A DNA stretch of 64,000 nt from Lingula anatina (Eukaryota > Animalia > Brachiopoda), in NCBI GenBank assembly GCA_051362555.1, contig CM120641.1, positions 13,826,001 to 13,890,000 on the forward strand, written 5' to 3'. The notes under the pieces are model-generated. The model worked only from the letters and a program-made list of their open reading frames with translations, did not search any database and was not told the origin of the DNA. Positions 16,241 through 54,867 of this stretch are shown one piece after another. The position numbers were made by a program, and so were the translations under genes. Numbering within the stretch: position 1 is the first letter of the stretch; every line of letters begins with the position of its first letter.

Positions 16241-16282
16241 TATATACGGTGCATTGCATGCTGGGATAGCTCATTGATCAAC

Positions 16283-19200
16283 ATGGATTCTTTGATGGAA
16301 TCATATGAGCAGCAGTTTGGAAGTTTAACAGCAGATATAACCTCAAAGATTGGGAAAATCCCAAATGTTTCTGGTAGTAAGTTATCACTTACCAATTTGA
16401 TTTTTCAGGCGGCTTGAACTTGCTTTTCAGTGACAATTTACATCTATATGCAGGGGGTATCCACCTCGGACTGTCAAGAAACGCACAAAATGTGTTTTGT
16501 CAGTGTCACTAACTTTTTGACAGAATTGCTAAATGATAGTTAAAAGTGATATAGCACCCAAGTTTAGAAATTCTCTCTCTTTCTCTTTCTCTCTCTCTCA
16601 AGATCATTGAAAAGGAGGGGGGGTCATTTCTACTGTAGAACATGCATGTCTTGGATTGTAAAACCACATTAAATAAGTAAATAGCTTAATAAATAGGCTG
16701 AGGTTGAAAATAAGGAAGCATGTACCTACATGTAGTATGGGCCACAACAGTACACACGAAATTCACAACACAAAATTCACAATACACGCAAAATGTTGTA
16801 GGTTTGCGCTTGTGTGTTTTGGGGTTGTGAAATACAGTATGTTTTGTGAGTTTTGTGTGTTGTTTTGTTGTGACTTTTGCGTTGTTGCCCTTACACTATT
16901 TTGTATAAAACAACAACACAACATAACTTCATAATGAATCCATAGTTAGTTTAAGTTATAACATTTTGTATGATAACTTATACTATCTAGGCACTGCAAT
17001 TATCTGTAGAGTTAATTTTTTATTGTAGAAGAAAAGGTGACAATTATTGAAAATGTGGAAAAGCTCATGGATGAAACCAGAGAATTGGTAAGTTCTGTGG
17101 TTTGCCTGTATTGTATTTTTGTGTCAGTTAATATAAATACAAATTTTATGTTTTGATAAAATGAGCCTGCTCAAGTCAAAATTGTAAACACATTTTAAGT
17201 GGAAGACAATTAAGGTATCATATGCCTGCCCTCACCTAGTAGTAATACTGTAAATCTACTTATGAGGAATGAATAAGTACATACTACTTGTTTATGATTG
17301 TTTTGAGAAATCCTCTCCATGTTTTGTTTTGCTTCTCACTTGCTAACTTACACCAGATGTGTTTTTTTTTTCCTTTCAGCTAGAACAGATGGATTTGGAA
17401 GTTCGTAGCTTGCCTGTAACAGAAAGGCAAAAGTACCAAATTCGACTGAAGAGCTATAAATCAGAATTAACCCAGCTTGAAAAAAACCTGGTAAATGACA
17501 TTCAGTAAATGTCTTTGGTGCTGAGAATCAAAATAATAATAAGATAATAATAACAAAATAATAATAAGAAAAAAACAGCTATGTGTTATCAGGCTGAATG
17601 CCCACAGGGTATAGGGTGTTGGTTGGTCCGAGAGTGATTCACACTAAAGGTAGTATTTGTTGGAATAAGCTGACTATACATATGTAGAAGGGGGACAGCT
17701 GGATCAGGAGAGGTCACTGATATGTTATAGAATAAGTCAGAAAAGTTCTACAAATTTTCACATACATTTATTCACATCTTTATGAGCAAATTCAGAACAG
17801 ATGATCTGCAGACTAACTGATCTGCCGACTAAATATGGCCTATCCCATTAAAAAGTGATGCCACTAAAAAAGGTCTCCCAGCCTCCACATATGACATCGC
17901 TGCAGAGGCCTAGCAGTTAAACTTGGAGCCAAGATTTTATCTGTTTAATGGCATGTATGGAGGTAAGGAGACCATCAGGGAATTTTTTGCGTCGCTTTTT
18001 AAGTGGGGTCAGCCATATTTAGTTGGCAGATCAGTTAGTCTGTGAATCATCTGTTCCAATTACACTCTATGGTGATTAAATGATGTGCAGTTTGTATCTT
18101 TTAAAAACATTAGGTTGGTTTAAATGTGTTATTGTGTCATTTAGTCACTAACTAGGATTTTCAATCTCTTTTAAGAAAAAATCGAAAATAGCATTTAGTG
18201 ATCATGTCCATGCTAGAGAAGAACTTCTTGGGGATGAAACACAGAATTCAGAAGACCAGGTAATTCTTTTTAATCCAGATTAAGTGACAATGTAGTAGTA
18301 GGTACTTGTTTTGAGGTATGAATTAAATAAGCTTTGACATAAACAGTAATTTTGTTCTTACCATATGAGTTGTGGTACCAAATTGCCTAAGTACTTATAC
18401 TACTGAAGTTGAATGCTTAACTTGTTAATAATCTTGTCCAAAACTGTTTTTATTGCTCACTGTCTCAAATGACCATTTGTTTTAAGTGGAAAATTTCTCG
18501 CAGTTTTCATTTTAAATTCATGAAATGCTGCCTTGGTTATTTAGGACCTCTGCAAGATTAATATTACACTTTCTTATTCCAGAGAACTAGGTTGCTTGAT
18601 AATACAGAAAGGTTAGAGAGGTCCAGTAAAAGATTAGAACATGGTTATCAAACAGTTTTAGAAACAGGTAAGTGGATTTCTTTTTTTTTTTTTTTTTTTT
18701 TTTTTGTAGTTTCAGAAGGTAGAGGTGTACTTCATACTGATAACCCCCCTTCTTTACTGCTGCAATGTCAGAGATCTGAAGGTACCATTGGTAGTATTAA
18801 AGGGATAACAATTGTTTGTGTATGATTCTTATTTCACAGTAGCAACATTGTAAAAAACCCATAGAAATATAACACATTCCATTTTACCACCAAAACAACA
18901 ATTATCGCAATTTTTATGGAACCTGGGCTGGCCATCAGACCATGTGGACCTTTATAGATGGCTAAACCTATTTAATAATGTCTTAAGAGATAATTACAAA
19001 AATACTTACTTTGAATGTTGGAATGGATTCATGAACCATTTGTACCAAATATATGGGAAAATCATCATTTACCCCAGGAAAATTGTTTTTTTTTTTTGGC
19101 CAAAACAAATAGTTGTTATCCCTGTAAGTTTTCTGGAGAATATTTAACTAAACTTAGTCCACAGAAGTTTCTTTTTTCCTCCTTTATCAGAAACATTGTA

Positions 19201-22200
19201 CCATCCCACACCTAACATTTTGACTAAAATTTGAAATCAGTCAAATATGGATTTTAACAAATTAATCATATAAATTCACATTGATTTCAAATAGACATTG
19301 AAGACCTTAGTTAATTGATATTTTTTCTTATGATTTTGATTGCATAATCAAATACTTTACATTTGTATTGTGAATTTGTATTGTAAAGAATTTTCAGTAT
19401 GCTAATTAACTCATTCCTGCATATACTGGTGCCCCTATTTATTTGGTTTATATGATAAACTAGAATGAATTTTTATTACAGTTGATAACACATTTACTTA
19501 TAAATGGTCTATTTTTTAATTAAAATATAAAAGAAGAGAGAGATGGAAAGAAATATTATTACTTTCAATTACTTTCCAGAACAGATAGGTGCTGCTGTGT
19601 TAGATGATCTTCATTCTCAACGACAAACCATACAAAGATCAAGAGAAAGAGTAAGACTTAAAATCAGTTGTCAAATGATTATCCAGATTTTTTTAAATTA
19701 TAAAATCCCATTGTTCTTGTAATTTTGATAACATGATCAGCAATAACTCTACTATTTTTTAGTACTGACACACTAAATATATAATAATTGGTTATCCTGA
19801 TGATATTGTAATATACATTTCAAAAGAAATAGTATAAGAGTCAAAGGGAAAAAATTGATAAATTTGGTAAATTTATTTTCAATTACTATTATTGTACCAC
19901 CAGCGTTAGCGCTGGCGGTACACATGGTTTTAGTCCCGTCCGGTCCGTTCCGCCGGCTCCGCCGGCTCCTGCGGCTCCGCCGGCTCCGCCGGCCCCGCCG
20001 GCTCCGCCGCCATGTTACCGTTACCGCTTCTCCTCCTAGACGGTAAGGGCCCCCATACCCATCTCTTGGATTTAGGTCACCTATAATCTCAACTCGTTCC
20101 ACGTAAAATTTGGGCTTTGTCGGTATTGGGGTCTAGGTGTGGCACTCATTGCAATGCACCCTTGTCCAAAAATGGCAAAATTAAATGCTAATTATCTACC
20201 CTACGGAAGGAATTATGGGAAAAATTTCTACAGACGGCTTTCCAAAAGTCATATGTGTAGATTTCAAATATGCCCTTGGATTTGACCTTTGACCTTTATT
20301 TCAAGGTCAAACGGGCAAAAATTTTCAAAAAAATGAATTTTTTTACGAAAAAAAAATTATTTGCGCTGTTATTCAGACACCACACAGACTTAACCAATAA
20401 TATTATTGGAAAATGTTACCCTTCAGGTCATCTTTCATCTGTGTGAATTTGGGGTCAATCGGTGCATTTTCACGGGTGTAGCGGCCATAAGATACCGAAA
20501 CTGAAAACTGTCTCTAATTCGGGAACCGTTAATGCTAGAGACCCATTCTTTCTTGCATTTTGTAGAGTATGTAAAGCCCAACACTGGAGGTGGTCTCCGT
20601 TTTTTTGTATTCCATACGGTTTTCGAGTTACGCTGTATCAAAAAGTACATATTGGTGGTGAAAGCAAAATGTGCAGTACGGTAATGGATAATAAATTTTG
20701 AACTCTGGAAAAATAAAACATAAGGCTTGGCAAAGCAGACAACTTGTGGTCAAAAATGACATTATTTCATCAAATTTGAACTTCTGGAACTTCAGAGCAC
20801 CTCCCATTTCAAGAATTTTTACCAAAATGACCTTTTCTTTATTTTAATTAATTTTTTCTGTAGGAAATTTATGGCACATTAAGGTAACTCCGAAATTATA
20901 ACATTTAGTCCCTTATATCTCCAAAACTGGCAGAGATAGGTCCATAGTTACTATTGAAGTTGAATAGGAAGTCATATACTGGCAATCTTACTGTGACCTT
21001 GAAATTGACCTTTGACCTACTTTTCACCATAAATTGAACTTTGCAAATTTTGCTACCCTTTTATCTCCAAAACTGGCAGAGATAGGTCCATAGTTACTAT
21101 TGAAGTTGAATAGGAAGTCATATACTGGCAATCTAAATGTGATCTTAAAATTGACCTTTGACCTACTTTTCACCATGAACTGAACTTTGCAAATTTTGCC
21201 TCCCTTTTATCTCCAAAACTGGCAGAGATAGGTCCATAGTTTCTATTGAACTCGAATATGAAGTCATATACTGGCAATCTAAATGTGACCTTGAAATTGA
21301 CCTTTGACCTACTTTTCACCATGAACTGAACTTTGGAAATTTTGCTTCCCTTTTATCTCCAAAACTAGCAGAGATAGGTCCATAGTCACTATTGAAGTTG
21401 AATAGGAAGTCATATACTGGCAATCTAAATGTGACCTTAAAATTGACCTTTGATCTACTTTTCACCATGAACTGAACTCTGCTAATTTCTTTCTCTTTTA
21501 ACTCCAAACCTGGCAGAGATAGGTCCATAGTTTCTATTGAAGTTGAATAGGAAGTCATATACTGGCAATCTAAATGTGACCTTGAAATTGACCTTTGACC
21601 TACTTTTTATCATGAATTGAACTTTGCAAATTTTGGTTCCCTTTTATCTCCAAAACTGGCAGAGATAGGTCCATAGTTACTATTGAACTTGAATAGGAAG
21701 TCATATACTGGCAATCTTTCTGTGACCTTGAAATTGACCTTTGACCTACTTTTCATCATGAACTGAACTTTGCAAATTTTGCTTCCCTTTTATCTCCAAA
21801 GTTACGCTGTATCAAAAAGTACATTTTGGTGGTTAAAGCAAAATGTGCTGAACGGTAATGGATAATAAATTTTGAACTCCGGAAAAATAAAACATAAGGC
21901 TTGGCAAAGCAGGCAACTTGTGGTCGAAAATGACATTATTTCATCAAATTTGAACATCTGGAAATTCAGAGCACCTCCCATTTCAAGAATTTTTACCAAA
22001 ATGACCTTTTCTTTATTTTAATTAATTTTTTCCATAGGAAATTTATGGCACATTATGGTAACTCCAAAATTATAACATTTAGTCCCTTATATCTCCAAAA
22101 CTGGCAGAGATAAGTCCATAGTTACTATTGAAGTTGAATAGGAAGTCATGTACTGGCAATCTTACTGTGACCTTGAAATTGACCTTTGACCTACTTTTCA

Positions 22201-25200
22201 CCATGAACTGAACTTTGCAAATTTTGCTTCCCTTTTATCTCCAAAACTGGCAGAGATAGGTCCATAGTTACTATTGAAGTTGAATAGGAAGTCATATACT
22301 GGCAATCTAAATGTGACTCTAAAATTGACCTTTGGCCTACTTTTCACCATGAACTGAACTTTGCAAATTTTGCTTCCCTTTTATCTCCAAAGTTACGCTG
22401 TATCAAAAAGTACATATTGGTGGTTAAAGCAAAATGTGCAGTACAGTAATGGATAATAAATTTTGAACTCCGGAATAAGGCTTGGCAAAGCAGACAACTT
22501 GTGGTCAAAAATGACATTATTTCATCAAATTAGAACATCTGGAACTTCAGAGCACCTCCCATTTCAAGAATTTTGACCAAAATGACCTTTTCTTTATTTT
22601 TATTAATTTTTTCCGTAGGAAATTTATGGCACATTATGGTAACTCCAAAATTATAACATTTAGTCCCTTATATCTCCAAAACTGGCAGAGATAGATCCAT
22701 AGTTACTATTGAAGTTGAATAGGAAGTCATATACTGGCAATCTAAATGTGACTTTGAAATTGACCTTTGACCTACTTTTCACCATGAGTTGAACTTTGCA
22801 AATTTTGGTTCCCTTTTATCTCCAAAACTGGCAGAGATAGGTCCATAGTTACTTTTGAACTTGAATAGGAAGTCATATACTGGCAATCTAAATGTGACCT
22901 TGAAATTGACCTTTGACCTACTTTTTATCATGAATTGAACTTTGCAAATTTTGGTTCCCTTTTATTTCCAAAACTGGCAGAGATAGGTCCATAGTTACTA
23001 TTGAACTTGAATAGGAAGTCATATACTGGCAATCTAAGTGTGACCTTGAAATTGACCTTTGACCTACTTATAATCATGAACTGAACTCTGCTAATTTCTT
23101 TCTCTTTTAACTCCAAACCTGGCAGAGATAGGTCCATAGTTACTATTGAAGTTGAATAGGAAGTCATATACTGGCAATTTACTGTGACCTTGAAATTGAC
23201 CTTTGACCTACCTTACGATGAACTTAATTTTGATTGTACCATTTTAAGTTATATATATTTTTTGCGTATTTTGAAAATTCTTGTTGATTGCATTTTTTAT
23301 GTACAGACACAGATGTGTCTGTACATATTGCCATCACCTGCGTCTGTCGTCGCCGTCGTCGCCGATGCCGATGGCGTCGCCGATGCCGTCGCCGATGCCG
23401 TCGCCGATGCCGGCGCCGTGCACTTTCCTTGTTAACACGATAAGTGGAGGGCAGTTTTACTTTTTGGCTTTATATTTACAGAGCTGATGAATATTCATAA
23501 AACACAGGTCAAGTTCGAAAATCAGCATGATCGGGCCATTATTGTAGAAGTTATGCTGTTTTTTCACTTTTCAGCATATATGCAACCCTGTTAACACATT
23601 TTAAGGAAAACCGATAGGCCTGTTGTCATGAAACTCACAGGAGTAATCAATCTTACTAAAACGCAGGTCAAGTTCGAAAATCGGCATGATCGGGCCACTA
23701 TTTTAGTAGTTATGCTGTTTTTTCACTTTTTAGCATATATGCAACATTGTTAACACATTTCAAGGAAAACCCATAGGCCTGTTGTCATGAAACTCACATT
23801 AGTAATCAATCTTACTAAAACGCAGGTCAAGTTCGAAAATCAGCATAATGGGGCCATTATTTTAGAAGTTATGCTGTTTTTTCACATTTCCTCAGATTCA
23901 ATTCTTAGACATGTTAACAGTTTCATTATTTAATTAATAAGATACGTAAAAGTGTTTGTTTGACATTTCCTGCATCTTTACAACATTGTTAGTTGATTTT
24001 GTAAAAATGATGGTAAACTTGTTATCATGTATTGTGTAATAAAGTTTCAAAAATGGAAATAAACTCATATCATTGCAGTTTGTCAGGTTCAATCATTCAC
24101 TATGTTCAGAATCTCAGAATGGAAGAAATTGGACATTTAACACTGCTCTATTGATATTTTTCCCATCTCATCAATTTTCTTAGTTGATCATATAAAAATG
24201 GCAGTAAACTGTTAATTTTGTTTTATGTTAAAAATTGTTAAAAATGGAAATAAAACATTTCAGAACAGTGCTGTCTTGTTTACATTTTGGCATTTTCAAG
24301 TTGTGACTTTGAAGTTCCATGGGCCTGAAGACCTTTGCTAGTCACAGTTTCTGAATATCCATGATACTAATATTTTATTATTAAAAATTGATGGTCATTA
24401 TGCTGTTAAACATTATGTAATATTGCATCAAAATTTGAAAAAAACCTATTTTGGGCATTGCTCCCATGATGACCATTTAAGAAAAACCATGTCACTTACT
24501 GTTCTCAAACAGTACAGTAAATATGTACAGATGTGTCTGTACATATTGCCATCACCTACGCCTGTCGTCGCTGTCGCCGGCGCTGTGCACTTTCATTATA
24601 AACACGATAAGTGGAAGGCAGTTTTACTTTTTGGCTGCTTGGTAATTCTTACTGCCAGTTAAACAGTTTTTTTGTGAAAATTTAATTTTTCACATATTGG
24701 CATTTTCAAGGTGTGAGTTTGAAGTTCCACGGGCTTGAAGACCCATGCTAGTCACATTTTCTGAAAATCCATGATACGTATATTTTATTATTAAAAATTG
24801 ACGGTCATTAGGCTGTTAACCATTATGTAATATTGCATCAGAATAGAAGAAAACACAATTTTGGGTGCTGCTGCCATGATGACCATTATGGGAAAACCAT
24901 GTTACTTATAATTGCCAAACTTTCAAAAAAGAAATACAGGACTAAAATGCAGCCTGAGTTGGAAAAGTAGTCTAATTGGCTTCTTTTTCTGGAAGTTATA
25001 CATTTTCAAAGTGTGAACTTGAACTCCCATGGGCCTGAAGCCTTATGCTTGTTACACATTTTACTTACATTGGTATTACCTGTTGAGCATAATTAAAATT
25101 TGATGTTGAATTTGCAGTTTAACATAATGTACTTTTGCATCAGAATTGACAGTAGCCTATTTTGTGCATAATTATTTCCTGTTTTTTGTCTGTACATTTG

Positions 25201-25855
25201 ACAGCTTTGCTGCCTTGTATAGCTTGTCAAGCATAAGACTGGTGGCTGTGTCTCTTATTTTGTGTATGTGGGGGTCTATACGAATGCGCTTGCTCCAGCT
25301 GGTGGTACAATATTCGGAGGCGGTATCGCCTCTCTGATCCTCTAGTTTATTTATTTACTTATGTGAAAGTAAAAATAATATTTATTTGCAACCAAAAGTT
25401 GGATGGTACATTTATGATATTAAAAATGGTAATTTTAAGAAATTCCATATTTGATATTAAAATATTTTCTAAAATACATTTTCAAGAACTGCATTAGAAT
25501 TAATTTTTTTTATCCGTTTGGTAAAATCATAAAATAACTTAAAAGGTACAATGTCCACTGAATTTAAGTTCTTGAGGCCCTTGCTGTTCTTAGTTTTGGC
25601 ACTTTAAATATCAGGGCACTTCGTAGCTTGCATTGCAAATGATCTTCTTCAAAATCTTTTTATTGAATAGAGAATTTGTCTTTTCTCACTATGTTTTCAG
25701 TTACGTGAAACTGATGCTGCTCTAGGAAAAAGCTCAAGGATATTATCAGGGATGATGAGAAGGTGAGACTAACATGTATACCCAAACATGCACACATAGA
25801 TAAATTATTCAAATAGATATGGCAAAACTGACTGATTGCCAAAAGCACATAATTA

Positions 25856-25931
<76 letters not shown>

Positions 25932-26183
25932 TTAAGCAGAGTTAACAACAACTCCATCATACTGTATTTATTTAAAGATTTGAACTGCATTTATAAATGC
26001 ATATGACTAATAACTTTTAAACAATTCCTTATACTAATTATTTTAAATACTCTAATTATATTAATTTAAATATTTCTATTTCTTCTTTTCAGAATTATTC
26101 AAAACAGAGCAGTCCTAGTGGTTGTTGGAATTATTATATTGATTGTTATTATAGTAGGAATATACTTTGCTGCCAAGAAGTGA
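16283..26183 (+). CDS. vti1a: Vesicle transport through interaction with t-SNAREs 1A (Qb-SNARE), 218 aa
   Basis: Exons 16283-16376, 17029-17087, 17380-17490, 18176-18259, 18583-18667, 19580-19650, 25701-25762, 26093-26183. Translation: MDSLMESYEQQFGSLTADITSKIGKIP...LEQMDLEVRSLP...QRTRLLDNTERLERSSKRLEHGYQTVLETEQIG...LRETDAALGKSSRILSGMMRRIIQNR plus a C-terminal TM helix. Candidate AATAAA at 27408. Confidence 0.96.
16735..16894. mobile_element. Small fold-back/MITE-like element in vti1a intron 1
   Basis: GTATGGGCCACAAC versus GTTGTTGCCCTTAC (12/14 inverted match). The left arm is CA-rich and the right arm GT-rich. Confidence 0.5.
17795..18056. mobile_element. ~260-bp near-full-length inverted repeat (MITE/fold-back) in vti1a intron 3
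   Basis: GAACAGATGATCTGCAGACTAACTGATCTGCCGACTAAATATGGC pairs with GCCATATTTAGTTGGCAGATCAGTTAGTCTGTGAATCATCTGTTC. The inner GGTCTCC..CCTCCA pairs with TGGAGG..GGAGACC. Confidence 0.8.
20627..23212. repeat. 146-bp satellite array with higher-order structure
   Basis: The unit anchor (CCAAAACTGG or a close variant) recurs at 20921, 21067, 21213, 21359, 21504 and 21650 (period 145-146). A ~290-bp spacer block starting GTTACGCTGTATCAAAAAG occurs at 20627, 21801 and 22392, followed by 6, 2 and ~4 units respectively. Confidence 0.95.
23293..25218 (+). mobile_element. Second HINE nested inside the first
   Basis: 5' hairpin TATGTACAGACAC-AGAT-GTGTCTGTACATA (23298-23327), a (GCCGAT/GCCGTC)n microsatellite, and 159-bp repeats (CAGGTCAAGTTCGAAAATC at 23505, 23664, 23823). 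The 3' end has the subTIR TGTCTGTACAT (25187-25197), the hairpin GACAGC-TTT-GCTGCC and a CTTGT end. A partial second head sits at ~24521-24636. Confidence 0.8.
25859..25927. repeat. (AT)n microsatellite
   Basis: Direct reading. Confidence 0.95.
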
Positions 26184-27445
26184 CAGTATTAAATTGACAT
26201 GAAGAAATGTGCTGTTAATCATATTAGTGTTGCACAGAAAAATGAAAGGGACCCTTATATGAAACATTGCAGATATCATGATCTATGAAATTCTTCTGAA
26301 TTCAATTATCTATATAGGACAGTGTGCTTTCACTCATGTTGTTCATGACATAAATTGGAAATGAGGGCTGTACATGACATGACATCAATTGGAATAAAGG
26401 GGAAATGTGTTAGGGGTTTACAATTTTACTTGAAAACGGTTCAAGAGATCGTTTGCAATTTATAGGCATATCCAGGTATTTAAATTTATCCATGAATATG
26501 TGCAAGGATATACACTAGAAAAGTACAAGCTCATTTCCTAAGATTACAAGGCAGTGACAAACGGAGGAAGGCAGATTAATGAGCAGGATATGTTGTATCA
26601 AGGATGGTCTGTAGGTCCTATAAACCATCCTACTGTTTCTTCTATTTCATAAGAAAATTTTCTTGAAAAAAGTGCAAATGTTCCTGCGAATATATTCTTG
26701 AAAAAGTGCAAAAAGGTATAGAAGTTATCAAGGATAGAAAATTTAAAATTTAATTACAAACAAATAAATGCAAAAGCAACTACTTTTAGGGCATTTCAGG
26801 TATTGTGAAATTAAATGTTGTGCAATTTTAGTGTTGCAAGTTTAAATTATTCTTCAAGTTCCAAGAAGAATCTCACTTTGTGGAGTTAAAATGAAAAAGT
26901 TATTATTTGCTAACTAGATCAAGAAATTTATTTCAATAATTTTAATGTAAACATTATTATACAAGTACAGTAGAATGTATGAAATGTGATGTTGAAAATA
27001 TATACTTCTAATATTTGAAAAGTGCAACGAACAAAATGTTTTTTCACTTTAAACTTCCTGTTGAAATAGATACAACAAAGAAATGATTTGCAAACAATGA
27101 AAAGAAAAATGCTGGTACATGTATATGATTGACTCCAATTTTTACATTGTATGATGTTGGTGCCATCAGTGTTCTACCAGTACACACTTTGTTCATTAGC
27201 TTAGTTTTTTTTATTTAAATATTTCAACACTATTAAGGGTTAAGTATGGTGGCAGGCCCACATACATGTATAAAAGTGCACTGGTGTATATGTATGTCTT
27301 CTAACATTATATGGATGTTTTAAACTGATTTATACATCCATTCCCATGGTGTTTAGGGTGTCTGTTAAGTTTTTATGGTTATTGTCATAGGATCATAAGA
27401 GAAGTGAAATAAATGTTTCATTTTTTGTATTTTATGTATTAAAAC

Positions 27446-28260
27446 TTTATATACAGACACCGTAAGTGTCTGTATATATTCTGATTGGTCTGTCTGTCCC
27501 CGCTACTGTCATCACTGTTGCCATTGCTGTCGCTGTATGACACATGACGTTTGCCCCTTAACTTCCAAACTGTATTACTTTAAATTTACTGAGTGGCTTT
27601 GTTTGGCAAAGAAAGAGGTTACTTTTGAAAACCTGCATGATCGGTTTTCATTTACGGTAATTATTCTGTTTTTTATTTTGCACAATTTTGGTTGGTGACA
27701 TTAGCCCCATAACAGCCAAACCATATTTTGGTTTTACTCAAAATTTACTGAGTTGCTTTGCAGGTTGCTTTCGAAAATTGGCATAATTACTTTTATGGTA
27801 ATAATTGTTTCTTTTTTCACAATTTTAGTGACATCTCCCCGTAACTTCAAAACCATATTTTGGTTTTACTCTAAATTTACTGAGTTGCTTTGCTTGGTAA
27901 AGAGGTAGGTTGCTTTTGAAAATTGGCATGATCGGTTTACATTTATTTTACGGTATTTTTTTTTTTTTTCACAATTTTGTTGACATTCACCCCATATTTC
28001 CCAAATCATATTTTGGTTTTGCTACTGAGTTGCTTTGCTTGGTTAAGATGCTGACTGCTTTAGAAAATCGGCATGATCTGTTTACATTTATGGTAATTAT
28101 TCGTTTTTTGCACACTTTTGGTGATGTTCGCTCCATAACTGAAAAACCTTATTTGGGTTTTACTTTAAAATAACTGAGTTGACTTGCTTGGTAAAGAGGC
28201 AGTTTGCTTTCGAAAATCAGCATTATCAGTTTACATTTGCTGTATTTATTCTGTTGTTTT
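27446..28260 (+). mobile_element. Older HINE related to the nested element, with ~5 diverged ~146-bp units
   Basis: Hairpin TATATACAGACAC-CGTAA-GTGTCTGTATATA (27448-27478) and a decayed microsatellite. A GAAAATYRGCATGATCGG-like motif recurs near 27623, 27770, 27914, 28060 and 28209. The 3' end is not resolved. Confidence 0.7.
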
Positions 28261-30665
28261 ATGTGTTAAAAAGCCTTTTCTGGTCTTACATGTGGAATAA
28301 TTTTGCATGGCAAAATATGAAAAATCCTATATAAGACAATTTGCAATATGATCAACATTGAAGAAATGTTAGCTGGGAAATGGTGTTCACTTAAAATGCA
28401 TGTTGAAGGCGTGTTACACCTATGAACATTTTACAGGTGCACTTGGTCATACAGGTAAGAAGATTACATACAATCATGACAAAGGCAGACATAGATATGC
28501 AATGTTTCAAACAAACCTGCTCATCAATTCACAAGTGCAATCTAAACTTGGGCTTTGAAGCGACTATGACCTACAGGCCTGATTACATAAACAAATCGAT
28601 ATTCAATTAAAACTAAAACTGATTTATTCTTTAGTTATTTTTAATTATTATCTATATTTTCAGTTCATGAGCATATAATTTTATTCTCATAAATCCTGTT
28701 TGTACAGTGAAAAAAAAATAAGCTGTATACAGTTGATCTTGAATTATAAGCATTTGGAAGGTCGTCTACAACTTAAGGAAAGCAATCAATAAAGCGCTGT
28801 TAGTTTACCGCTAAGTTTTCAAATAGTCATCATCTTGAGAACAAAATGACGCCGAGAAAAATCTGCATTGCAACTGAAAAATGCATTTTGTTAAAACTTT
28901 CAATACAAATAGGATTTTTATGGAAAATACGACCACTGTAACATGACCGTAATAAAGACGCATTGAATAAATATACTTTTTTAAAGTTGAAAAACGTGAT
29001 GCTAGCATTACATTAAAAGCCTTGCAGATATCCAATTTTCAGAATATTGTCCAGTCTATAAAAATAAACTTTTTTATTAAAAAGACAACTGAAATAATTA
29101 CAAAAACCCTGAAACAGTAGATGAAAGCTAGCATATGAAGACAATTGCGTTAGAGAATCCATTTCTAATCTCAACTGTGCACGAAGACGCTTCATACCCA
29201 AGTGTTCGTTGGCATCGTATTATTGTACAAAAATACAAAACAAATGTTATATCTAAAATGGAACAATGGACCCGCATAATTATGGTGAAAAGTGTGGTAA
29301 ACGTTATTTCTTCACACCCATGAATGCAGGCCTGGGGCAGTCCAAACACAGGTGAAATTTTTCAAATCAATTTCCGAGAAGAGAGTACTAAGCGTGCTCA
29401 TCGGGGGGTTTCCAACACGTATCTACAAGACCAATTATCTCATACGAGAATAAGATGAGATCTTCAAGATACTAAGGGAGGTGGCAAGTGAAATTATACA
29501 ACCCGGGGCAGTTTTTTTTTTTTTTTGTTTTCATTTTTCACACTTTTGTTTTTTGTTCATAAGACATTTTCTTTCCGTTTTATATATATGTACATTAAAA
29601 CGAAATTACCAAACCTTTCAATAATCTATATATACTGGTATATACAGGGTATACATATATACCAAGCATTTAAAATAGTTTATTGAACACGATTTCTGTT
29701 TATCCCATCTATGGAAAAAGCGTTCCGGAGAATTTGTGTAGTTTTTCATTTTTATCATTCACTGTAAAGAACGATTTTACAATCTATCATCATTATCAAT
29801 CTATCATCGACAGTAAAATGGGGACAGACATTTTTTTCGGTAACGAAAGTCATTTCTCTCTTTCTCTCTCTCTTTCTTAATAAAATTATACATATGCAGA
29901 AAAGGACAGTCAATATAGCAGTTTAAATAAAAAGCATTAGATGGTTACAGAAGTAAAAAAAACGAATAACAAAAAACGAGTAACATGCCATTTCAAAGGA
30001 TAATGGTATCTCTGCTGCAAGTTTGAGACTTTTCCACGACGGTGAAAAAGTGTTGCGATGTCACGATTAAATGAAACTAGGACATAAAATATATATATAA
30101 TTTATCTTCCTATAATGAAATAAAAAGATTAATATGAAAATTGGTGAAATAAATGGATTAATTTGAGTAATTCCAAGAATGCCCGACAAATGTGATATCT
30201 TACAGTTCTCACGTTTTGCTTTCTTACTTGAGAGTTTGTTTTTAAACTGGAAATGATTTTAGGCATATTTTGTGAATTACTCTCCGGGTTGGTTTAAGTC
30301 CGTACTTCACAGGTGTTGCTAAGGTCAGCATGTAGTCCTCTTCGTACACAAGGTTGGGTGAAAGGGTTCGTTGCTGTGAAAGAATGATTTGGTAAACTAC
30401 TTTCCGGAAGATTTTTAGATAGGACGTTTATCTGGGTTCATCTCAAGCGTGCAATTTAAAGTTAAACGCTCATTTTCTTCCTACATTTAATTTGTCTATT
30501 CATCCAACACGATGTAATTACCACGTGTCGAACATAATTGTTACGATTCTAAAGAGGTACAAATTGCAAGGATGCTCCTCGTGAAAAATTCAGGTGTTGT
30601 CTCCCTCCAGAGGTCGCTGTTGTTTAATAACCCAGGTCGCGATTAATGATATCCATATATGGTAC

Positions 30666-30932
30666 TACAAAGGGAGCCGCCAGAGATCAAAGGGAGCCGC
30701 CAAAATGTGGATTGTCACTATATACGCTCTTCCGCTGTTAGAGCAAGAGCAAAATCATATCCATAATTTAAATGCTGCTTCTGCACGTTTGTGATTGGAA
30801 TTAATCTCCTGGGCTCTCAGGCTCGGATTTTAAGAGAATGAAATGTCTATAGAAAAAAAGCTGAGCGTGGTAAATAGCTAGCTTTCTGCACGGCAGAAGC
30901 CGCGAAGAAACAGGATGGCGGCGAGATCAAAG
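30666..30932. promoter_or_regulatory. Candidate Wnt-response element: three TCF HMG sites, each paired with a Helper site
   Basis: TACAAAGG-GA-GCCGCCA (30666-30682), AGATCAAAGG-GA-GCCGCCA (30684-30702) and TGGCGGC-G-AGATCAAAG (30916-30932). Confidence 0.7.
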
Positions 30933-31699
30933 ACTCGCTTAAATGCCCTCGGAAAACATTCGCACTGTGTTTGTTTGCAATGGCCACATTCCTTTTGTAT
31001 TTTAACATTGAGGTGGAAGAATGAAGTGAATATTGAAGAATAAGTCAGGGGAGCATCCTCTTGCATCTGGGATGACAATGTGTTAATATATAGTCTGTGT
31101 AAATTTACTAAAACATTTATAGCTAATACACAACTTGTGTTTCTTAAAAAAAAAATTATAAACGGTGCTTTTGAAATACTATATTTACCCCTGCCGTTTG
31201 GTTGTTTCACGTATGTTCTTTATATAGGAGACATGAATACCTTTTTCTTATTTATTTCTTGGATATAAATTTATTCAGGTTCCATTCAAACGCTATGGTT
31301 TTCTGTTTACACACACACACACACAAACACACACACACTGATGATTTGTAACCACTGCCGTGTGTGTGCTTGTGTGCACTTTTTTTTTCAAATACCATGG
31401 AACCTGCTAACAATTCTTTTACATAATTGCGGGGACACAAAAACGAATACCGGTTATTCTACATTTACTGAAATTTCCTTATTCGTATTAAAAAATAACT
31501 GTCAAGTTTGTATAAATTTCGTTTACAAAATTTTGGTTCACGGAATTAATTTTTGTTTTAGATAGAAAAAAAAATTCCAAAAACTAATAAATATTTTTTA
31601 CTAGATGCAATTGTTTAAAAACAGAATGTATGCTTTTGATTTCCGTGAAAGTTAATCATTGATTGTCAATATAGAAGTATGATTTAATGCAGGGGTAAT

Positions 31700-31977
31700 T
31701 GTAATAAAATGCGCTGAAATAATGAGTGAATGAACAAGACGCTCTCCGTGTGTCAACTACTTAAACCGAAGGAATTTATACACCTTTAATGCCTCTGTCT
31801 TTCTCGGGCTCTGATTGGCTAGTTTTGAACGACATCAGCGACCCCTTTACGGCCTTTGTAAGGTGCCCTAGTTAGTGCCATTAATCATTACCGACTTTCA
31901 TGGCGGACTTCAAAGGAAGTACCGAAAGAAGTGTGAACTGGCTCAAAAATTTAGTGTTGTAGTAAAAACTCTTGGCC
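31700..31977 (+). promoter_or_regulatory. TCF proximal promoter/5'UTR (CpG-rich; reverse CCAAT box; TCF sites)
   Basis: CTGATTGGCT at 31811-31820, CCTTTGTA at 31853-31860 and TGGCGG-ACTTCAAAGG at 31901-31916. CpG is retained here, unlike in the gene body. Confidence 0.55.
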
Positions 31978-34900
31978 ATGCCGCATGTTAGTTCTAGCGG
32001 CGGAGATGACTTAGCTTCCTCGGACGAAGTAAAAGTGTACAAAGATGAGGGAGAAGAGGGCGAACCATCGTCCGAAAACTTGTCCGAAGATAAACTCGGA
32101 TTAGTCACTGAGACAGAAGAGGTATGGTGGTATTTTCGAAATGATGATAGATATATTTCTTGCGTTCGGATGAACTTTGAGGCTGCTATGGTTTAAATTT
32201 GACTAGTCAGCCAGAAGTAGAGCAGGTATCTTATTATTATACTGTTTTCCAGGGCAAGAGTTCAACCATTCCATCAGAAAACTATTCAAGAAACGTAAAG
32301 GAAGGGCCTCCACCAGAACACAACGGTAAGGTGTTTTAAAATTCTAAAAAGTTAATGCAAAAAGTTAATTTATGAAATAAATAAAGAACGTATGTAAGTT
32401 TTTTATGCATGTAACACTTAATGATTTAGAGCACAGAACACAGAGATTAAATATTTAGTAAAGTTAAAACTTGACAGTTGCAAAGTTTCATTTGTATTTT
32501 GACAGATTATGGCATTGGTATCTAGACACATTGAGTTGTAAGCAGAAATGTTCCCTGTCAATATTTCTTGAAACATTTAAATGAATAGGTATATGATATA
32601 TTTTTCATGGCAAAGCAAAACTTAGTTTGTCTTAATTCCCTAATAGAAATTCATTTGAATTTTTATTTTTTAATTTCAAGGTATAAAACACACAGGAGTG
32701 TCACTTATTGATCCCTATCACCCTACACCCATAGGTTATGTGGTTACCCCTTATCCCTATCCAAATGGTGCTACAAGTTTGGTAAGTACTGGTCCTTCCA
32801 TTTTAGTCATCTCATTTTTCAAATACAAGATTATTTTCACAGGCTAACAAAGGCGAGCAGATCTGTTGAAATAGGTAGGCTTGAATAGCATATAATTGCC
32901 CCGTTATTGTTGGCAAGCAAATTTCTATACAGGCGGATCTATTATATTTCTGGTTTCTTATCCTCCCAGGCGAAAGAAAGAAAAACAGACCGTATACCTC
33001 CAGGTTTTAATCTTTTTTTAACTGACCTACTGGGTGATTTGTTAACAGTTTCAAGTAACATATTATATAAAAGATGACAGAAAAGATGAAGCCTTAATTT
33101 TCTGGATTAACTGCATATTTTGATACGGCTACATACTAGTGACCAAGCTGAGGCGATTAATGCAGTGTTTGATTTATGATAACAACAGATTGGGTCCAGT
33201 ATTAAGATTAGTCAGATATATTGCACTGAAACTTACCCCTGTGTAATATATATGTACACTCCACAGAAAGCTCTGTGCAAATACCACTATTTACCGAGGA
33301 GTGAAACAAAGGGATGTGGCATATGCTGGTTAGCTTCAAGGTTGAGGCTTTGCGAAAACAATACCCCAGTATGTTAGAGGCAGCAAAATATTCTGAGGGA
33401 TACATTAATTTTATTTCAGCAGACCCCCAGTTGAAGTTTAGTAGTTTTGAAACAGGAAATTGAGTCTATTTTGCCAGAATCTTGTTTGCAGCTGGACTGG
33501 TTAAAGAAACATTTGAAATGTCAATCATAATTATGTGACATTTTAACCCTGACAAATGCAGATGCTCCCTCTTTTCACTCTTGGTTTGTATTTAGCAATC
33601 GGAATAAAGCCTCTGGTAGACCTGGAAGCCCTTTAATTTTGTTGCGAAATAATCTTGTGCAACGCTAGTTTGTTTCTTCTAGGGCTTAACTCTAGGGTCT
33701 CCCTACCCTGGTTGGAATATTGAACTGACAAGTAGGGTTTACACCCAGAGGCAATAATGAAAATGATCAGAAAGCGAAATAACACAGAGAAATAGCCCAA
33801 ATTGCTTGAAGATCTATTATCATCCTGAAGAATAATTGTATTGAAATGAGACAACCCAATATCTACCTGGCAGTAATTCAATAGAACTATCTGAGACTCA
33901 CAATGGATACTGGCAATATTGCTTCAGCAATCATTTCTGCAAATCCTTAGTTTTGTTTTAATAATGCAGACTATTCATTAAAGAAAGTATGCGTGAAAGT
34001 ATTTTTTTTTTTTCAGTGGAGCCATTTTCATTTTTACTCCTAGTCACATTGCAGAGTTTTACATTTAACGTCAAATTTATTTGTAACTTCTTAAAATTGT
34101 CATTAAAATACGCTGTATATATCTCAGTGGAAAAATGTAACAATATATAATTGCTAATTTAAAGAACATAAAAAAGGGAACATTTTGTGGAGCAATTTGT
34201 TAAAGACTATAACATTTGTTGCTATGGATTTTTTTTTTTGAGTGATTGACGTGAAACCTGTTGGCTTACATGAAAAAAGGTTGAGACTGTAGCAGCAAAA
34301 TCTCTTGTTCAAACAAGTTCTTTGAATCCCCAAAGCCCTTCCAAATAATGTCTGAAAAGTCACCTTGTTATTGTTATGCTTTGTTATGTCTGGGAAATCT
34401 TGTTTTGAAAGAATATAGATGACGACAATGGACTTGCCATTTTCTATGTGAAATCTGGAACTTTTTAAGACACCTGAAAAAATTTAAACAAAAGAACATT
34501 GCCAGTTTTCAGTTAATATTCTTGACCACGAGGCAAGTGAAGAGTGTTAAAAGATACAAAATCTGTAACCTGAGTATTTGTCATTTTTATGGTTACTTAT
34601 TTGCGACAAGTTTTCTTTTCCTCAGAGCAAAGTGCAAGTTGTCAGTTAAATTTTATTCCCCCTAAGGTTGTCTGGTTCACAACAAAGCTCCATGTTAAAC
34701 TGTACATATTAAAAATCCATCACAGGATTGTAGTTCAGCATATAATAATACATGCTCCTGCTATGCTGGCATTTACATCCTTTAACTTAGTGTAGACAGT
34801 ATGGTAGTTAATGAAGTAAAGCAATGTGGTCCCCAGCCAGCTATGAAAATGATGGGCATGTCCATTTCTTTTGTGCTTGGAGTGCGGTTCTTTTGTGCAC

Positions 34901-51000: not shown

Positions 51001-54000
51001 AAGTAGTGGCAGAGTGCACATTAAAAGAATCTGCAGCAATTAATCAAATTTTAGGTAGAAAGGTAGGTGACGCATAAGCTGATATATATATATTTTTTTA
51101 CAAGGGGGGAAATAACTCATCCGAAGATGAAAGTCTGTTCTGTAATTTTAAGTGATTACTTTGTGATGATCTTCTGTTATGATTGTGTGATAAATGATCG
51201 ATTTGAAAGTCGTTCGGTGAAGGGATCATATGGCCCTAGTATTCTTTGTGTGACAAGGAAGACACTCACATGCATGGCAATATCCATGATGACCTTACAT
51301 TTGGCATCTGTGTATGGTGAAAAAACCACTTTGGAAGATTAACGTGAAATACTAGATGTTCAGTTAATAGATTTGATTCACCTTTGTTACTTTGTATGTT
51401 GCCTTTTGACATTGCAGAGACCCTACAACCTTACAGTGATCTTTTATCTTTTGTCATGGAAAACATGCAAGATTTATGGGCATGAGGAAAGGGGGGGGGG
51501 GGGAACAGATGCAACTTTATTTTAAAAAAAAGATGAAAAAATTATTTACTATTGAAGAGCAACAGTGACAAAGCTAACATTTATTGAATGGGGAAGATGT
51601 TTACCTTGTCATGTGCAGATTATTTATATCCACTGAATTGTTATCATAAGTATAGCAGTGGTTACTAATCCACTTTTCCTTTCAATATTTCACCCCTCTG
51701 GTGGCATAGATTGGATAGATCTGAGCTACAAAATTACTTGATAGCTGTCTGATTTAGAATTTTTTCTTGAACATTTATGTCTCTTTTCTTCCAGTGGCAT
51801 GCACTTGATAGATCTGAACAGCAAAAATACTATGAAATGGCCCGCAAAGAGAAGGAGCTGCACATGCAGCTGTACCCTGGCTGGTCAGCACGAGATAACT
51901 ACGCCTGCCACACGAAAAGGAAAAAGAGGAAACGTCAGGAATGTCAGGGAGAAAAAGGTAAGGTGTTGTTAAACTGACCAGATATTAATTCAGTAACAGT
52001 CCGGTATTATTCCATATTTATCTTATTGGGCTAACTGGTGTTCAATCATAGGGTAAAGGTGATGGAATTGGGGTTCATGCTCTTGAAGGACCTTGAGAGG
52101 GGGATAGAGATTGGGTTGTAGCTGGCACAGGATAACAAGAATGTGTGGCACAACATTGCTCCCCCCCCCTTTCCCCTTTTCACATGCATGAGATATTACC
52201 CTATGTTGTAAATAAATTGAAGTTTGCATGTTCTGTGGATTCTTTATTTTAAAAAAAGTAATGGTTTATTGCTGGTCTCGTAGGTAGTGTTTCAGGGGTT
52301 TATATACTAGTTCAGGCCTGGGCTGGCTGAATTGCCTTTTTTAGCATGAGGCCTAGAGCAAGTAAAAAAAAAAAAACATTCTTATGACATGCATTTCAGA
52401 TTGCAATAACCCAAAGAAGTGCAGGGCGCGGTTTGGAGTGGACCAGCAGCATCAGTGGTGCAAGCCATGCCGGTAAGTGCCCTGGCTCTGCATGCCAGTC
52501 TGGTAGCGGAGGCTGATGCAGAAAAGTTGCAATGACGGCACTTCCGAGCTCTGTCCACCACCCACACTCTTATGTACATCTCTGTTTATTAAGTGGAATG
52601 ATTGTTGTGCTTCTCATTTCCCATGTACTGAATTGATAAAACACCTTTTCAGTATCCACTTCCAATCTTTGAAAGATAACTTGAATGAGACTTATTTATT
52701 TTCGTATTATTCATTTGTTTATTTTTTGCAAAAGCAAAATAAATTTCTTCCAAAAACATAAATTTACTTATTAAAGTGGAAATATAGAAATACACTGACA
52801 GTTGCCATATCTGTGCTGTGATTGGTGGACAGTGCTAGGGGACTCCATGATGGCTGCCCAGACCATGCAGGCCTGTTTGTCATGCTGTATTCACAAACTG
52901 GATCATGTCAGTCATGCTTGTGGCCCCTCTGATCCCACCATGCCTCTAAACTTCATCTTCATGTTTTAACTGTCACCAGACAGGCAAATTGTGTGGTGGC
53001 TCTCGTGTTATCCTCTTTTCTGTGTAGTAGGCAAAAAAAAAAAATGAGAGGAAATCAATCGGTACTTGACAACAACGTGGATTGACAACATGACTAATAA
53101 ACAACAACTACTACTACAACTTCCAAATCATCAGTCAATCAATCAATCAATCACTCAATCAACTTCGACTTTTCTGCAATAGCCTTCTCGTTTCAGAGAT
53201 GTGCATGACAAAGAGAGCGAACAATGTCCAACTCAGGTCTCAGATGCGAGCAATCCTTCGACCACTGACATATCTTATAGTCAGGTATAGCGAATGGTTC
53301 CACAGCATGCTGCATGTCAGCTCCACCATATCTTACTGTATTATTATTATTATTATTATTACCAAATGGTGCTTGTGTCCGTTATTTTAAGTTGGAGGTG
53401 TTTGATCTCTTCTTTCTTGCATGCACAGGTCTGGCCCAGCATGATGGAGGCTGCCTTGCAGTGGGCGAATATTATGTATGCATTTTGTGTCATGAATGCA
53501 GCCGCAATTACAGGAACGTACTTTAGTACTACAAGTAGTTGTGACTTTGATTTGATTGTATTTTTGGATGTCATATTTGACATGTTGTACTCGAGTATTT
53601 GCATGACAGCTGCAAAATGTATGATTTTTTACATTTGTTTATTTTTTTAATTTAATTTTTATTTATTACTTGCTTTCCGTGGCATTCATACCAACCAACT
53701 GCATATCCATATACAAAGTAGACCTTCATCATGTGTTCTTGGGGCTGTGAAGCCTTCTCTGTTACCAAATTTTATTTCAGAATGGATAAAAAAAACTTCA
53801 TAACTACAGGAAGCCCTTCTGTATCTACTAACTCATAAAAAAGAAAAAAAAATACTTGCCCCGTATTGGTCGTCGCCAATCCATAGTTGCTGCTGGTGCT
53901 TGTTTTTCCTCTACTTTGCATGGTGTTAAGTTGTCACTAATTGGGACACAGGCCAGTAGAGCTTGGCTGTAGATCTCTTACTTTATTTAATTTTGCAACA

Positions 54001-54867
54001 GTATTTTAGGGGGATGACACACAACATAGTGTGGACTTACGGTGCATGGTGAAGAGTGAGATTAGATTATTTTAATGCTAAGTTTCATAATATGTACATA
54101 TTATATCCTTGTACATACTAGTTGAATTATCATTATTATATTCTTATTTTAAAATGGGTTTTGTACTACTTTCTTCAATTTTGCCACGTGCAAGGCATGG
54201 GCAATGCTCTCTTCATTTTAAAATGGTGATCTTTTTCTTCACTATTGAGAAGTTCTTATTACATGTATTTCTTTTTACAATGTGCATTCTATTTTCACAA
54301 GACTGGATACTGAGAAACAGGCAAGTAAATGAGAAAGTTGATGTGGTTTCATAAATGAATCAGTTTTTCTTTTAGTTGTACAACACTAACATATGTTTTT
54401 TAAATACCACTGCAGAGAAACTGGGTATGTTGTGCTTTGGCGCCTTGTGAATGGAAGGCATAAGGCAGGCTGTACATGCATATAATATCACTTAATACTT
54501 ATTGTTTAATTACAGCCGAAAGAAGAAGTGCATCCGCTTCCTGATGGGAGATGATGAAGATGAAGATGATGATGATGATGAGAATGCTAGTGATGCAGAG
54601 GATCAAGCAGGAAGCGTGCCTCACGTGGACTCCACAAATGATCCAGAGAATACCAACAGTCCAGATCAGTATGGACATCACTCAGACAATAACTCAGACA
54701 GTGACCAGGAGATTTTAAAACACAACAGTGGAGACAATGAATGCTCTAGTACAAACACCCTAGTGTCCCACCACCATCATCACCAAGATGCCCTGCCAAG
54801 TACTACAACTCCACAAGTTCCTTCCTCCTCCACTTCTTCGTCAACGAGTGAAGCCATAGCCACATAA
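31978..54867 (+). CDS. tcf: TCF/LEF transcription factor (pangolin/TCF7L2-like), C-clamp isoform, ~509 aa
   Basis: Exons 31978-32121, 32253-32325, 32681-32781, 43668-43809, 46099-46183, 48188-48397, 50876-51062, 51795-51957, 52400-52472, 54516-54867. Domains: beta-catenin-binding [27 protein letters not shown]; PPPAHLG..IDPKTG motif; HMG box [45 protein letters not shown]...[10 protein letters not shown]; basic tail KRKKRKR; C-clamp [28 protein letters not shown]. Candidate AATAAA at 56780. Confidence 0.97.
42858..43474. mobile_element. Non-autonomous DNA transposon with TTAA target duplication (Kolobok-like) in TCF intron 3
   Basis: TTAA|AGTCATAATAACTCTTC ... GAAGAGTTATTATTGCT|TTAA (15/17 TIR match, AG termini). 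The interior is CpG-rich against a CpG-poor intron and contains a 26-bp perfect palindrome at 43000-43025. Confidence 0.75.
46398..46437. repeat. (TATG)n microsatellite
   Basis: Direct reading. Confidence 0.95.
47991..48030. repeat. (CT)n microsatellite
   Basis: Direct reading. Confidence 0.95.
54416..54424 (+). CDS. Candidate 9-nt microexon of TCF (AGAAACTGG)
   Basis: Branch point CACTAAC at 54384-54390, acceptor CACTGCAG, donor GG|GTATGT. It preserves frame and leaves a 91-nt downstream intron. Confidence 0.55.

What the first reader, a model, noticed from the sequence alone, without database searches (positions are those of the whole stretch)
30666..30932. TCF gene preceded by its own bipartite HMG+Helper binding elements (autoregulatory Wnt-response element)
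Seen in sequence: 1.0-1.3 kb upstream of the TCF ATG is a 20-bp-period tandem, TACAAAGGGAGCCGCCA GAGATCAAAGGGAGCCGCCA. About 215 bp later comes TGGCGGC-G-AGATCAAAG, with the Helper in the opposite orientation. Established: AGATCAAAGG is the optimal TCF HMG site, and GCCGCCR is the Helper site bound by the C-clamp. Three closely spaced pairs of a GC-rich 7-mer and a TCF site in AT-rich DNA are unlikely to be chance. Inference: C-clamp-containing TCF regulates its own transcription, and the 20-bp spacing (about two helical turns) would phase two TCF molecules on one DNA face.
Basis: partly seen in the sequence, partly recalled or inferred. Interest (0 to 1): 0.85.

Follow-up and report, generated by a model that had tools for sequence, protein, structure and literature searches.

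The report
Conserved self-feedback module upstream of TCF
About 1 kb in front of a brachiopod's TCF gene lies a 480-base non-coding block, almost unchanged in a related species, that carries three matches to TCF's own two-part binding site, so Wnt signalling likely boosts its own transcription factor through this block.

Summary
Observation confirmed. The gene is Lingula anatina TCF with an intact C-clamp. In the published fly nomenclature the pairs are AK2, AK2 (also KK0) and FF0; FF0 is one of the two best-bound layouts. They are the only such pairs in 64 kb; 0 of 20,000 shuffles gave two. The first two pairs look like one 20-bp duplication, so there are two independent events.

New evidence: the sites lie in a 481-nt block that a relative keeps at 95% without gaps, while flanks do not align and synonymous sites differ by 33%. 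Changes hit 0 of 42 core motif bases but 5 of 12 degenerate edge bases. The block looks single-copy in the relative, and 0 of 91 RNA reads fall on it.

Best reading: a Wnt-activated, C-clamp-dependent autoregulatory enhancer (0.65). Binding, activity and target are untested, and the helical-phasing idea is unsupported. The kind is known (LEF1; hints in Hydra and Platynereis); my searches found no mapped element for an invertebrate TCF gene. This scan earlier noted TCF-site satellites in other genomes, not this element.

The parts
30552..31032 (.). Conserved non-coding block (candidate Wnt-responsive enhancer)
   Evidence: Run X11 (organism B) aligns over 481 nt with 23 differences and 0 gaps; flanks 30328-30551 and 31033-31798 do not align at 80%; no Pfam hit in overlapping frames; 0 of 91 RNA reads lie on it
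30663..30673 (-). HMG site 1 (CCTTTGTAGTA), weaker match; AK2 with Helper 1
   Evidence: unchanged in X11
30676..30682 (+). Helper 1 (GCCGCCA); AK2 to HMG 1 and KK0 to HMG 2
   Evidence: layout names from probe sequences in PMC4154663 supplement; unchanged in X11
30683..30693 (-). HMG site 2 (CCTTTGATCTC), near-optimal; AK2 with Helper 2
   Evidence: X11 differs only at edge positions 1 and 11
30696..30702 (+). Helper 2 (GCCGCCA)
   Evidence: X11 differs only at the R position and still fits GCCGCCR
30916..30922 (-). Helper 3 (GCCGCCA); FF0 with HMG 3
   Evidence: unchanged in X11; overlaps a one-mismatch YY1-like string (motif recalled)
30923..30933 (-). HMG site 3 (TCTTTGATCTC); FF0 layout
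   Evidence: the two X11 edge changes make the pair identical to one half of the FF0 probe
30653..30662 (.). Perfect CArG box (SRF-type, motif recalled) abutting HMG 1; candidate co-input
   Evidence: unchanged in X11; post hoc and not tested for significance
30968..30993 (+). Fox-like (30968-30978) and TEAD-like (30986-30993) matches (motifs recalled); candidate co-inputs
   Evidence: no listed X11 change
31799..31977 (+). Conserved proximal promoter and 5' leader of TCF: CCAAT-box string at 31814-31818, transcript 5' ends about 31840-31900, further HMG matches at 31853-31860 (+) and 31908-31916 (-)
   Evidence: X11 aligns from 31799; X9 spliced contig starts at 31866; raw RNA reads start in bins from 31786-31846 on
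31978..32121 (+). TCF coding exon 1 (beta-catenin-binding N-terminus)
   Evidence: 100% identical to P0001
50874..51956 (+). HMG-box and basic-tail exons of TCF (50874-51062, 51792-51956)
52399..54864 (+). C-clamp exons (52399-52473 and 54517-54864), C-X12-C-X2-C-X5-C intact
   Evidence: spacing rule from PMC4999783 passages

Best explanation
The three HMG+Helper pairs sit in a conserved 481-nt non-coding block about 1 kb before the TCF start and likely form a Wnt-responsive enhancer through which TCF, with beta-catenin, would raise its own transcription. Shown: the motifs and their layouts (AK2, AK2/KK0, FF0), the intact HMG box and C-clamp in the gene's product, constraint on the block, and changes confined to degenerate motif positions. 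Inferred from fly, worm and human work: (1) one TCF binds each pair, HMG box on CTTTGWWS and C-clamp on GCCGCC, with FF0 the strongest site; (2) without signal TCF would repress through the HMG sites alone; (3) with nuclear beta-catenin the Helper contacts become necessary and the block would activate the nearest promoter, that of TCF; (4) other conserved sites in the block (CArG, TEAD-like, Fox-like, E-box, CCAAT) would limit the feedback to certain tissues.
For: Only pairs in 64 kb; 0 of 20,000 shuffles give two. Layouts match tested probes: FF0 IC50 9.4 nM, KK0 in the middle group, AK0-6 enriched in fly ChIP data, AK2-9 preferred by human TCF1E (PMC4154663 sections 7, 14, 16). Block differs at 23 of 481 positions against 10 of about 31 synonymous sites in exon 1 (Fisher p=5e-6). 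0 of 42 core versus 5 of 12 edge positions changed (p=2.5e-4); edge versus rest of block 5 of 12 against 11 of 353 (p=5e-5). 4 of the 5 edge changes keep or improve the fly consensus. The change at 30702 breaks an overlapping E2F-like match but keeps GCCGCCR. TCF is the nearest promoter; the upstream v-SNARE gene's last coding exon is near 26.1 kb. HMG sites are enriched within 700 nt upstream of other animal TCF starts: 6 of 15 locus groups against 1.6 expected (p=0.003). Helper sites are needed for activation, not basal repression (PMC3916239 abstract).
Against: No binding, chromatin, perturbation or reporter data. Only one relative was aligned, and 7 of its 23 differences near the block's ends were not listed. 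Core invariance alone does not exceed the block's own conservation (0 of 42 versus 11 of 353, p=0.62); the longest invariant run (30748-30859, 112 nt) holds no TCF pair, so other factors drive much of the constraint. One edge change (30693) loses the S of HMG 2. The block has no clear counterpart in 80 other TCF loci (best hit 21 of 23 letters, E=0.11). GCCGC-type pairs are not enriched upstream of other TCF genes (1 of 15 groups, p=0.28; 0 of 13 at -2000 to -701). The one matching unit (L053/L054) is degraded in the aligned locus L030. AK2 itself was not among the fly EMSA probes (0 and 6 bp only).
Confidence: 0.65

Rival explanations
1. TCF binds the pairs, but the main effect is to hold the TCF gene down (default repression or negative feedback) rather than to amplify it.
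For: In Platynereis, Tcf rose with Wnt activation in the gut but rose with inhibitors elsewhere, a single unquantified observation (PMC5996498 passages). Sequence alone cannot give the sign of regulation.
Against: Helper sites are dispensable for basal repression in fly and worm (PMC3916239 abstract), yet all three Helper cores are kept in the relative.
Confidence: 0.12
2. The block is a real enhancer read mainly by other factors (SRF, TEAD, Fox, NF-Y, YY1, Sox); the TCF pairs are passengers or are read by other proteins.
For: Most of the 481 nt are as conserved as the TCF cores. CArG, TEAD-like, Fox-like, E-box and CCAAT matches carry no listed change. Helper 3 overlaps a one-mismatch YY1-like string, and HMG cores resemble Sox sites (motifs recalled).
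Against: Changes fall exactly on the positions that the TCF consensus leaves free (5 of 12 versus 0 of 42). The E2F-like match is broken in the relative. Chance pairing is rare.
Confidence: 0.11
3. The block is a TCF-bound module that acts on another gene (the upstream v-SNARE gene or a distant one), or it is an alternative promoter or non-coding exon used at stages not sampled.
For: The block holds CCAAT and TATA-like strings. A low-depth contig of the RNA-like run X9 (depth 2.2) covers 30282-30585, touching the block's left edge. Only 6 to 25 in 100 of each RNA run was read.
Against: 0 of 91 raw RNA reads from 3 runs lie on 30200-31785, and no joint links the block to exon 1. No credible Rfam match. 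Differences show no codon phase (6/4/6). TCF's start is about 0.85 kb away.
Confidence: 0.08
4. The pairs are a chance product or a fragment of a repeat family with TCF-like units.
For: Units 1 and 2 are a tandem duplicate. Notes from this scan describe satellites made of TCF-like units in other animals (unchecked). No whole genome was available to count copies in this species.
Against: Only one contig covers each position of the block in X11, at depth 25.4 against 27 for the exon contig. No second copy was laid at 80% from X11 or X7, and none lies in the window. Constraint is about seven-fold above synonymous sites.
Confidence: 0.04

Closest known systems
Drosophila HMG-Helper Wnt-responsive modules, e.g. 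nkdIntE (Archbold et al. 2014, PMC4154663; abstract, sections 6, 7, 14, 16 and supplement rows read)
   Same: Same two motifs in close pairs, clustered in a few hundred bases. The FF0 and KK0 pairs match the paper's probe layouts exactly. Two clusters lie 213 nt apart (101 bp in nkdIntE).
   Different: The target here is the TCF gene itself. The AK spacing is 2, not the optimal 6. Function is untested.
Human LEF1 regulatory DNA activated by E-tail TCF1E/TCF4E (PMC4999783 and PMC4267635 passages; the primary paper PMC2169181 was not held)
   Same: A TCF-family gene carrying HMG and Helper-like sites that need the C-clamp for Wnt activation.
   Different: LEF1 is driven by a paralogue's C-clamp isoform through short RCCG motifs. 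Here the C-clamp gene would act on itself through full GCCGCCR Helpers.
Reported TCF feedback in invertebrates: Hydra tcf (PMC8049744 passages) and Platynereis Tcf (PMC5996498 passages)
   Same: TCF transcript levels depend on TCF/beta-catenin activity.
   Different: The passages read give expression evidence only and map no cis-element. Here there is a conserved element but no expression test.
C. elegans POP-1 response elements (PMC3916239 abstract; PMC4154663 section 16)
   Same: FF0-2 and AK pairs; Helper needed for activation.
   Different: POP-1 is a divergent TCF, and the targets listed are not pop-1.

Membership tests
HMG-Helper Wnt-responsive cis-regulatory module | HMG site matching CTTTGWWS / SCTTTGWWS | tested here: met
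   Three CTTTGWWS cores; sites 1 and 2 also have the leading S, site 3 lacks it
HMG-Helper Wnt-responsive cis-regulatory module | Helper GCCGCCR within about 10 bp in a described layout | tested here: met
   AK2, AK2, KK0, FF0
HMG-Helper Wnt-responsive cis-regulatory module | Host TCF has an intact C-clamp (C-X12-C-X2-C-X5-C with basic stretches) | tested here: met
HMG-Helper Wnt-responsive cis-regulatory module | Sites under evolutionary constraint | tested here: met
   One relative: 0 of 42 core and 5 of 12 edge changes; block 95% versus 67% at synonymous sites
HMG-Helper Wnt-responsive cis-regulatory module | Bound by TCF, with binding helped by the Helper | not testable with these tools
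   needs EMSA, ChIP or CUT&RUN
HMG-Helper Wnt-responsive cis-regulatory module | Wnt/beta-catenin-dependent activity lost on HMG or Helper mutation | not testable with these tools
   needs reporters
TCF/LEF autoregulatory element | Lies at the TCF gene's own regulatory region | tested here: met
   0.85-1.3 kb before the transcript start; the upstream gene's coding end is near 26.1 kb
TCF/LEF autoregulatory element | TCF transcription depends on the element and on TCF activity | not testable with these tools
   no perturbation data; run labels are coded
Interspersed or satellite repeat | Many copies in the genome | tested here: not met
   One covering contig per position and depth equal to the exon contig in X11; no second copy in the window. 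The own genome could not be searched, and the lay tool's filter can drop contigs.
Exon or structured RNA gene | RNA coverage, splice joints, coding signature or Rfam match | tested here: not met
   0 of 91 reads, no joint; no codon phase; Rfam hits only on a nearby CA repeat, far below threshold; stages sampled are unknown

The most novel reading that the evidence does not exclude
Direct self-activation of TCF through sites at its own promoter is an ancestral spiralian, perhaps bilaterian, circuit: this block is its best-preserved form, the near-identical AK2 unit 135 nt before the start of another syntenic TCF gene (L053/L054) descends from the same element, and the conserved HMG islands in bivalve-like and annelid-like TCF promoters are its turned-over equivalents. 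The vertebrate LEF1/TCF7 feed-forward loop would then predate the TCF gene duplications.
Probability: 0.3. Interest if true: 0.7.

Novelty: new member of a known kind. Interest (0 to 1): 0.5.

Why it matters
Invertebrate TCF is often treated as a constitutive DNA-binding platform, with beta-catenin as the regulated part (own knowledge). Expression hints from Hydra and Platynereis suggest feedback on TCF itself, but my searches listed no paper mapping the cis-element in an invertebrate TCF gene. A compact conserved block with six discrete, mutable sites makes the question directly testable. It also offers a natural test of whether the fly HMG-Helper grammar holds in spiralians. The mechanism class is established, so the surprise for a specialist is moderate.

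Tried and rejected
No whole genome was held, so no genome-wide copy count or background rate of pairs could be made. No RNA holder was listed among indexed runs. X8 gave no laid contig, which can be a filter effect. The high depth of X7 over the block (145-187 against 39-58) looked like open chromatin or extra copies; rejected as evidence because its contigs break at GATC sites with 4 extra letters, as restriction-ligation libraries do (inference). Holes in X11 and X7 cover are not proof of absence, but X11's own contigs run on with unlike sequence at 31032 and 31799 and bridge 30328-30551 with 245 other letters. Helical phasing was rejected as unsupported. A fourth pair at 31901-31916 was considered: its Helper-like TCCGCCA overlaps the HMG 11-mer and coincides with a conserved upstream ATG, so it was not counted. 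Low-stringency blastn of the block against 80 loci gave no significant match. Rfam gave only below-threshold mir-3149 hits on a CA repeat. PMC3531958 and PMC11414264 passages gave nothing on regulation of TCF itself. PMC2169181 was not held. Paper searches for Lingula ATAC-seq and for VTI1A-TCF synteny gave nothing usable. No structure or complex prediction was run, as none can model DNA.

Full report
1. The gene. The ATG at 31978 opens a TCF gene. Exon 1 is 100% identical to P0001, which its sources name as Lingula anatina transcription factor 7-like 2, and all ten coding exons of P0001 map to the window with mismatches only at exon edges. The product has the beta-catenin-binding N-terminus, HMG box, basic tail and a C-clamp with C-X12-C-X2-C-X5-C spacing split over two exons (spacing rule from PMC4999783 passages). 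No whole genome was held.

2. The observation. The quoted strings are present. Using the probe sequences in the supplement of Archbold et al. 2014 (PMC4154663) to fix the names, the pairs are: HMG 30663-73 with Helper 30676-82, AK2; HMG 30683-93 with Helper 30696-702, AK2; Helper 30676-82 with HMG 30683-93, KK0; Helper 30916-22 with HMG 30923-33, FF0. These four relations are the only ones in 64 kb, and 3 of the window's 4 GCCGCCR lie here. In dinucleotide shuffles of the 2 kb upstream, 67 of 20,000 had one paired Helper and none had two. Units 1 and 2 share 16 of 20 letters, so I count two independent events. In the fly, FF0 and AK6 bind best, KK0 and AK0 moderately; AK0-6 is enriched in bound chromatin; human TCF1E prefers AK2-9 or FF0-11 (sections 7, 14, 16).

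3. Conservation. A search of public runs listed one small-share holder from another organism, X11. Its contigs align only in islands: 30292-30327, 30552-31032 (481 nt, 23 differences, no gap) and 31799-32318 (promoter to exon 2; 51 differences, 2 gaps). The same contigs run on with unlike sequence outside these islands. All 10 differences in exon 1 are synonymous, about 33% of synonymous sites, against 4.8% in the block (Fisher p=5e-6). Sixteen of the block's 23 differences are listed; the other 7 lie near its ends. Taking CTTTGWWS and RCCGCC as cores (PMC4267635 abstract start), 0 of 42 core bases changed, 5 of 12 edge bases changed, and 11 of 353 other bases changed (core versus edge p=2.5e-4; edge versus rest p=5e-5). 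Four of the five edge changes keep or improve the fly consensus, and the relative's third pair reads like one half of the FF0 probe. One change loses the S of HMG 2. Against over-reading: the cores are not more conserved than the rest of the block (p=0.62), this test was framed after seeing the data, one edge change is at a CpG, and only one relative was available.

4. Not a repeat, not an exon. X11 depth is 25.4 on the block and 27 on the exon contig, with one contig per position; the window holds no second copy. X7's higher depth is discounted because its contigs break at GATC sites. Three RNA runs (6 to 25 in 100 read) gave 91 reads on 30200-32000, none on 30200-31785 and no joint to the block. 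A spliced contig of X9 starts at 31866. The transcript start is thus near 31840-31900, and the block ends about 0.85 kb before it. A depth-2.2 X9 contig at 30282-30585 is unexplained. Differences show no codon phase, 0 of the overlapping frames hit Pfam (147 frames scanned), and Rfam gave nothing credible. The upstream neighbour is a v-SNARE gene whose last coding exon is near 26.1 kb.

5. Other TCF loci. 80 of 160 confirmed exon-1 loci from metagenome contigs were returned. The block has no significant match among them; its best hit is the AK2 unit itself, 21 of 23 letters, 135 nt before the ATG of L053/L054 (E=0.11), a locus that also keeps the v-SNARE neighbour. In L030, whose promoter aligns with L053, both halves of that unit are degraded. 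I grouped the 80 loci into 15 sets, partly by hand after clustering, and took the member with most upstream DNA. Within 700 nt upstream, CTTTGAWS occurred in 6 of 15 against 1.6 expected (p=0.003); RCCG-type pairs in 3 of 15 (p=0.03); GCCGC-type pairs in 1 of 15 (p=0.28). At -2000 to -701 nothing was enriched (13 sets). At +150 to +850, GCCGC-type pairs occurred in 2 of 13 (p=0.006). These are 15 uncorrected tests. So HMG sites near TCF starts look widespread, while full Helper pairs are patchy.

6. Mechanism. Most likely each pair binds one TCF through HMG box and C-clamp; HMG sites alone would allow repression without signal, and Helper contacts would be needed for beta-catenin-driven activation (PMC3916239 abstract). 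The nearest promoter is TCF's own, giving positive feedback. All of these steps are inferred. The 20-bp period equals the length of one AK2 unit and is about 34 degrees from two full turns, so phasing is not needed to explain it. The rest of the block holds CArG, TEAD-like, Fox-like, E-box and CCAAT matches with no listed change in the relative (motifs recalled, found post hoc), which suggests combinatorial, tissue-limited control. An E2F-like match over Helper 2 is broken in the relative; a YY1-like match over Helper 3 is not excluded.

7. Comparison and novelty. It works like a fly HMG-Helper module and meets every sequence-level feature tested; binding and activity could not be tested. C-clamp-dependent activation of LEF1 is known (PMC4999783, PMC4267635 passages). 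Vertebrate TCF autoregulation and a tentative loop in Platynereis are discussed in PMC5996498 (passages), and Hydra tcf depends on TCF activity (PMC8049744 passages). Searches listed no paper mapping such an element in an invertebrate TCF gene; subscription papers and bioRxiv supplements were not searchable, so this is weak. Earlier notes of this scan concern TCF-site satellites in other genomes and nothing on this protein.

8. Verdict. Real, conserved and well matched to a known grammar: a new member of a known kind. Confidence in positive autoregulation 0.65; interest 0.5.

Noticed in passing
window 31900-31962 (+); L001-L008, L056, L061, L062, L070 at -75 to -80; L053/L054 at -102: A short upstream ORF in the TCF 5' leader (20 codons here, ending 15 nt before the main ATG). 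An ATG in a similar context lies 75-80 nt before the TCF start in annelid-like and bivalve-like loci and always stops before the main ATG (14 of 80 loci carry the motif). Its frame and length vary, so this may be conserved translational control of TCF, or a DNA motif near the transcript start.
   Followed up: partly
window about 16200-26200 (+); L053 780-3601, L054 542-3363: A Vti1a-like v-SNARE gene lies directly upstream of TCF on the same strand, here and in L053/L054. Human VTI1A also precedes TCF7L2 (recalled; not confirmed), which would be ancient microsynteny.
   Followed up: partly
L061 1469-2168 and L070 9301-10000: In two bivalve-like TCF promoters three HMG sites (about -675, -452, -227) are kept at the same places, the first as an island in poorly aligned DNA; the -452 site keeps a GCCG core at AK6 spacing.
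   Followed up: partly
L063 +155 and L002 +192 from the ATG: HMG+Helper pairs at the start of TCF intron 1 (FF1 and AK6); 2 of 13 groups against 0.08 expected (uncorrected for 15 tests).
   Followed up: partly
window 30292-30327: A second small island (36 nt, 4 differences) aligned in X11; it holds a CAGGTGTTG string also present at 30591.
   Followed up: no
window 52474-52476: Reading past the donor of the first C-clamp exon meets a stop at once, so intron retention or another last exon would give a truncated C-clamp, like vertebrate S isoforms. No RNA was checked.
   Followed up: no
window 20909-23232, 23498-23890, 27787-28260: Tandem repeats of 146, 159 and 145-149 nt; the 146-nt unit has look-alikes in L075 and L077.
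   Followed up: no
window 3665-5800, 12584-12757 (-), 15149-15331 (-): A proline-rich repeat ORF that looks formin-like (impression only), a SAP-domain frame and an RPL34 exon.
   Followed up: no
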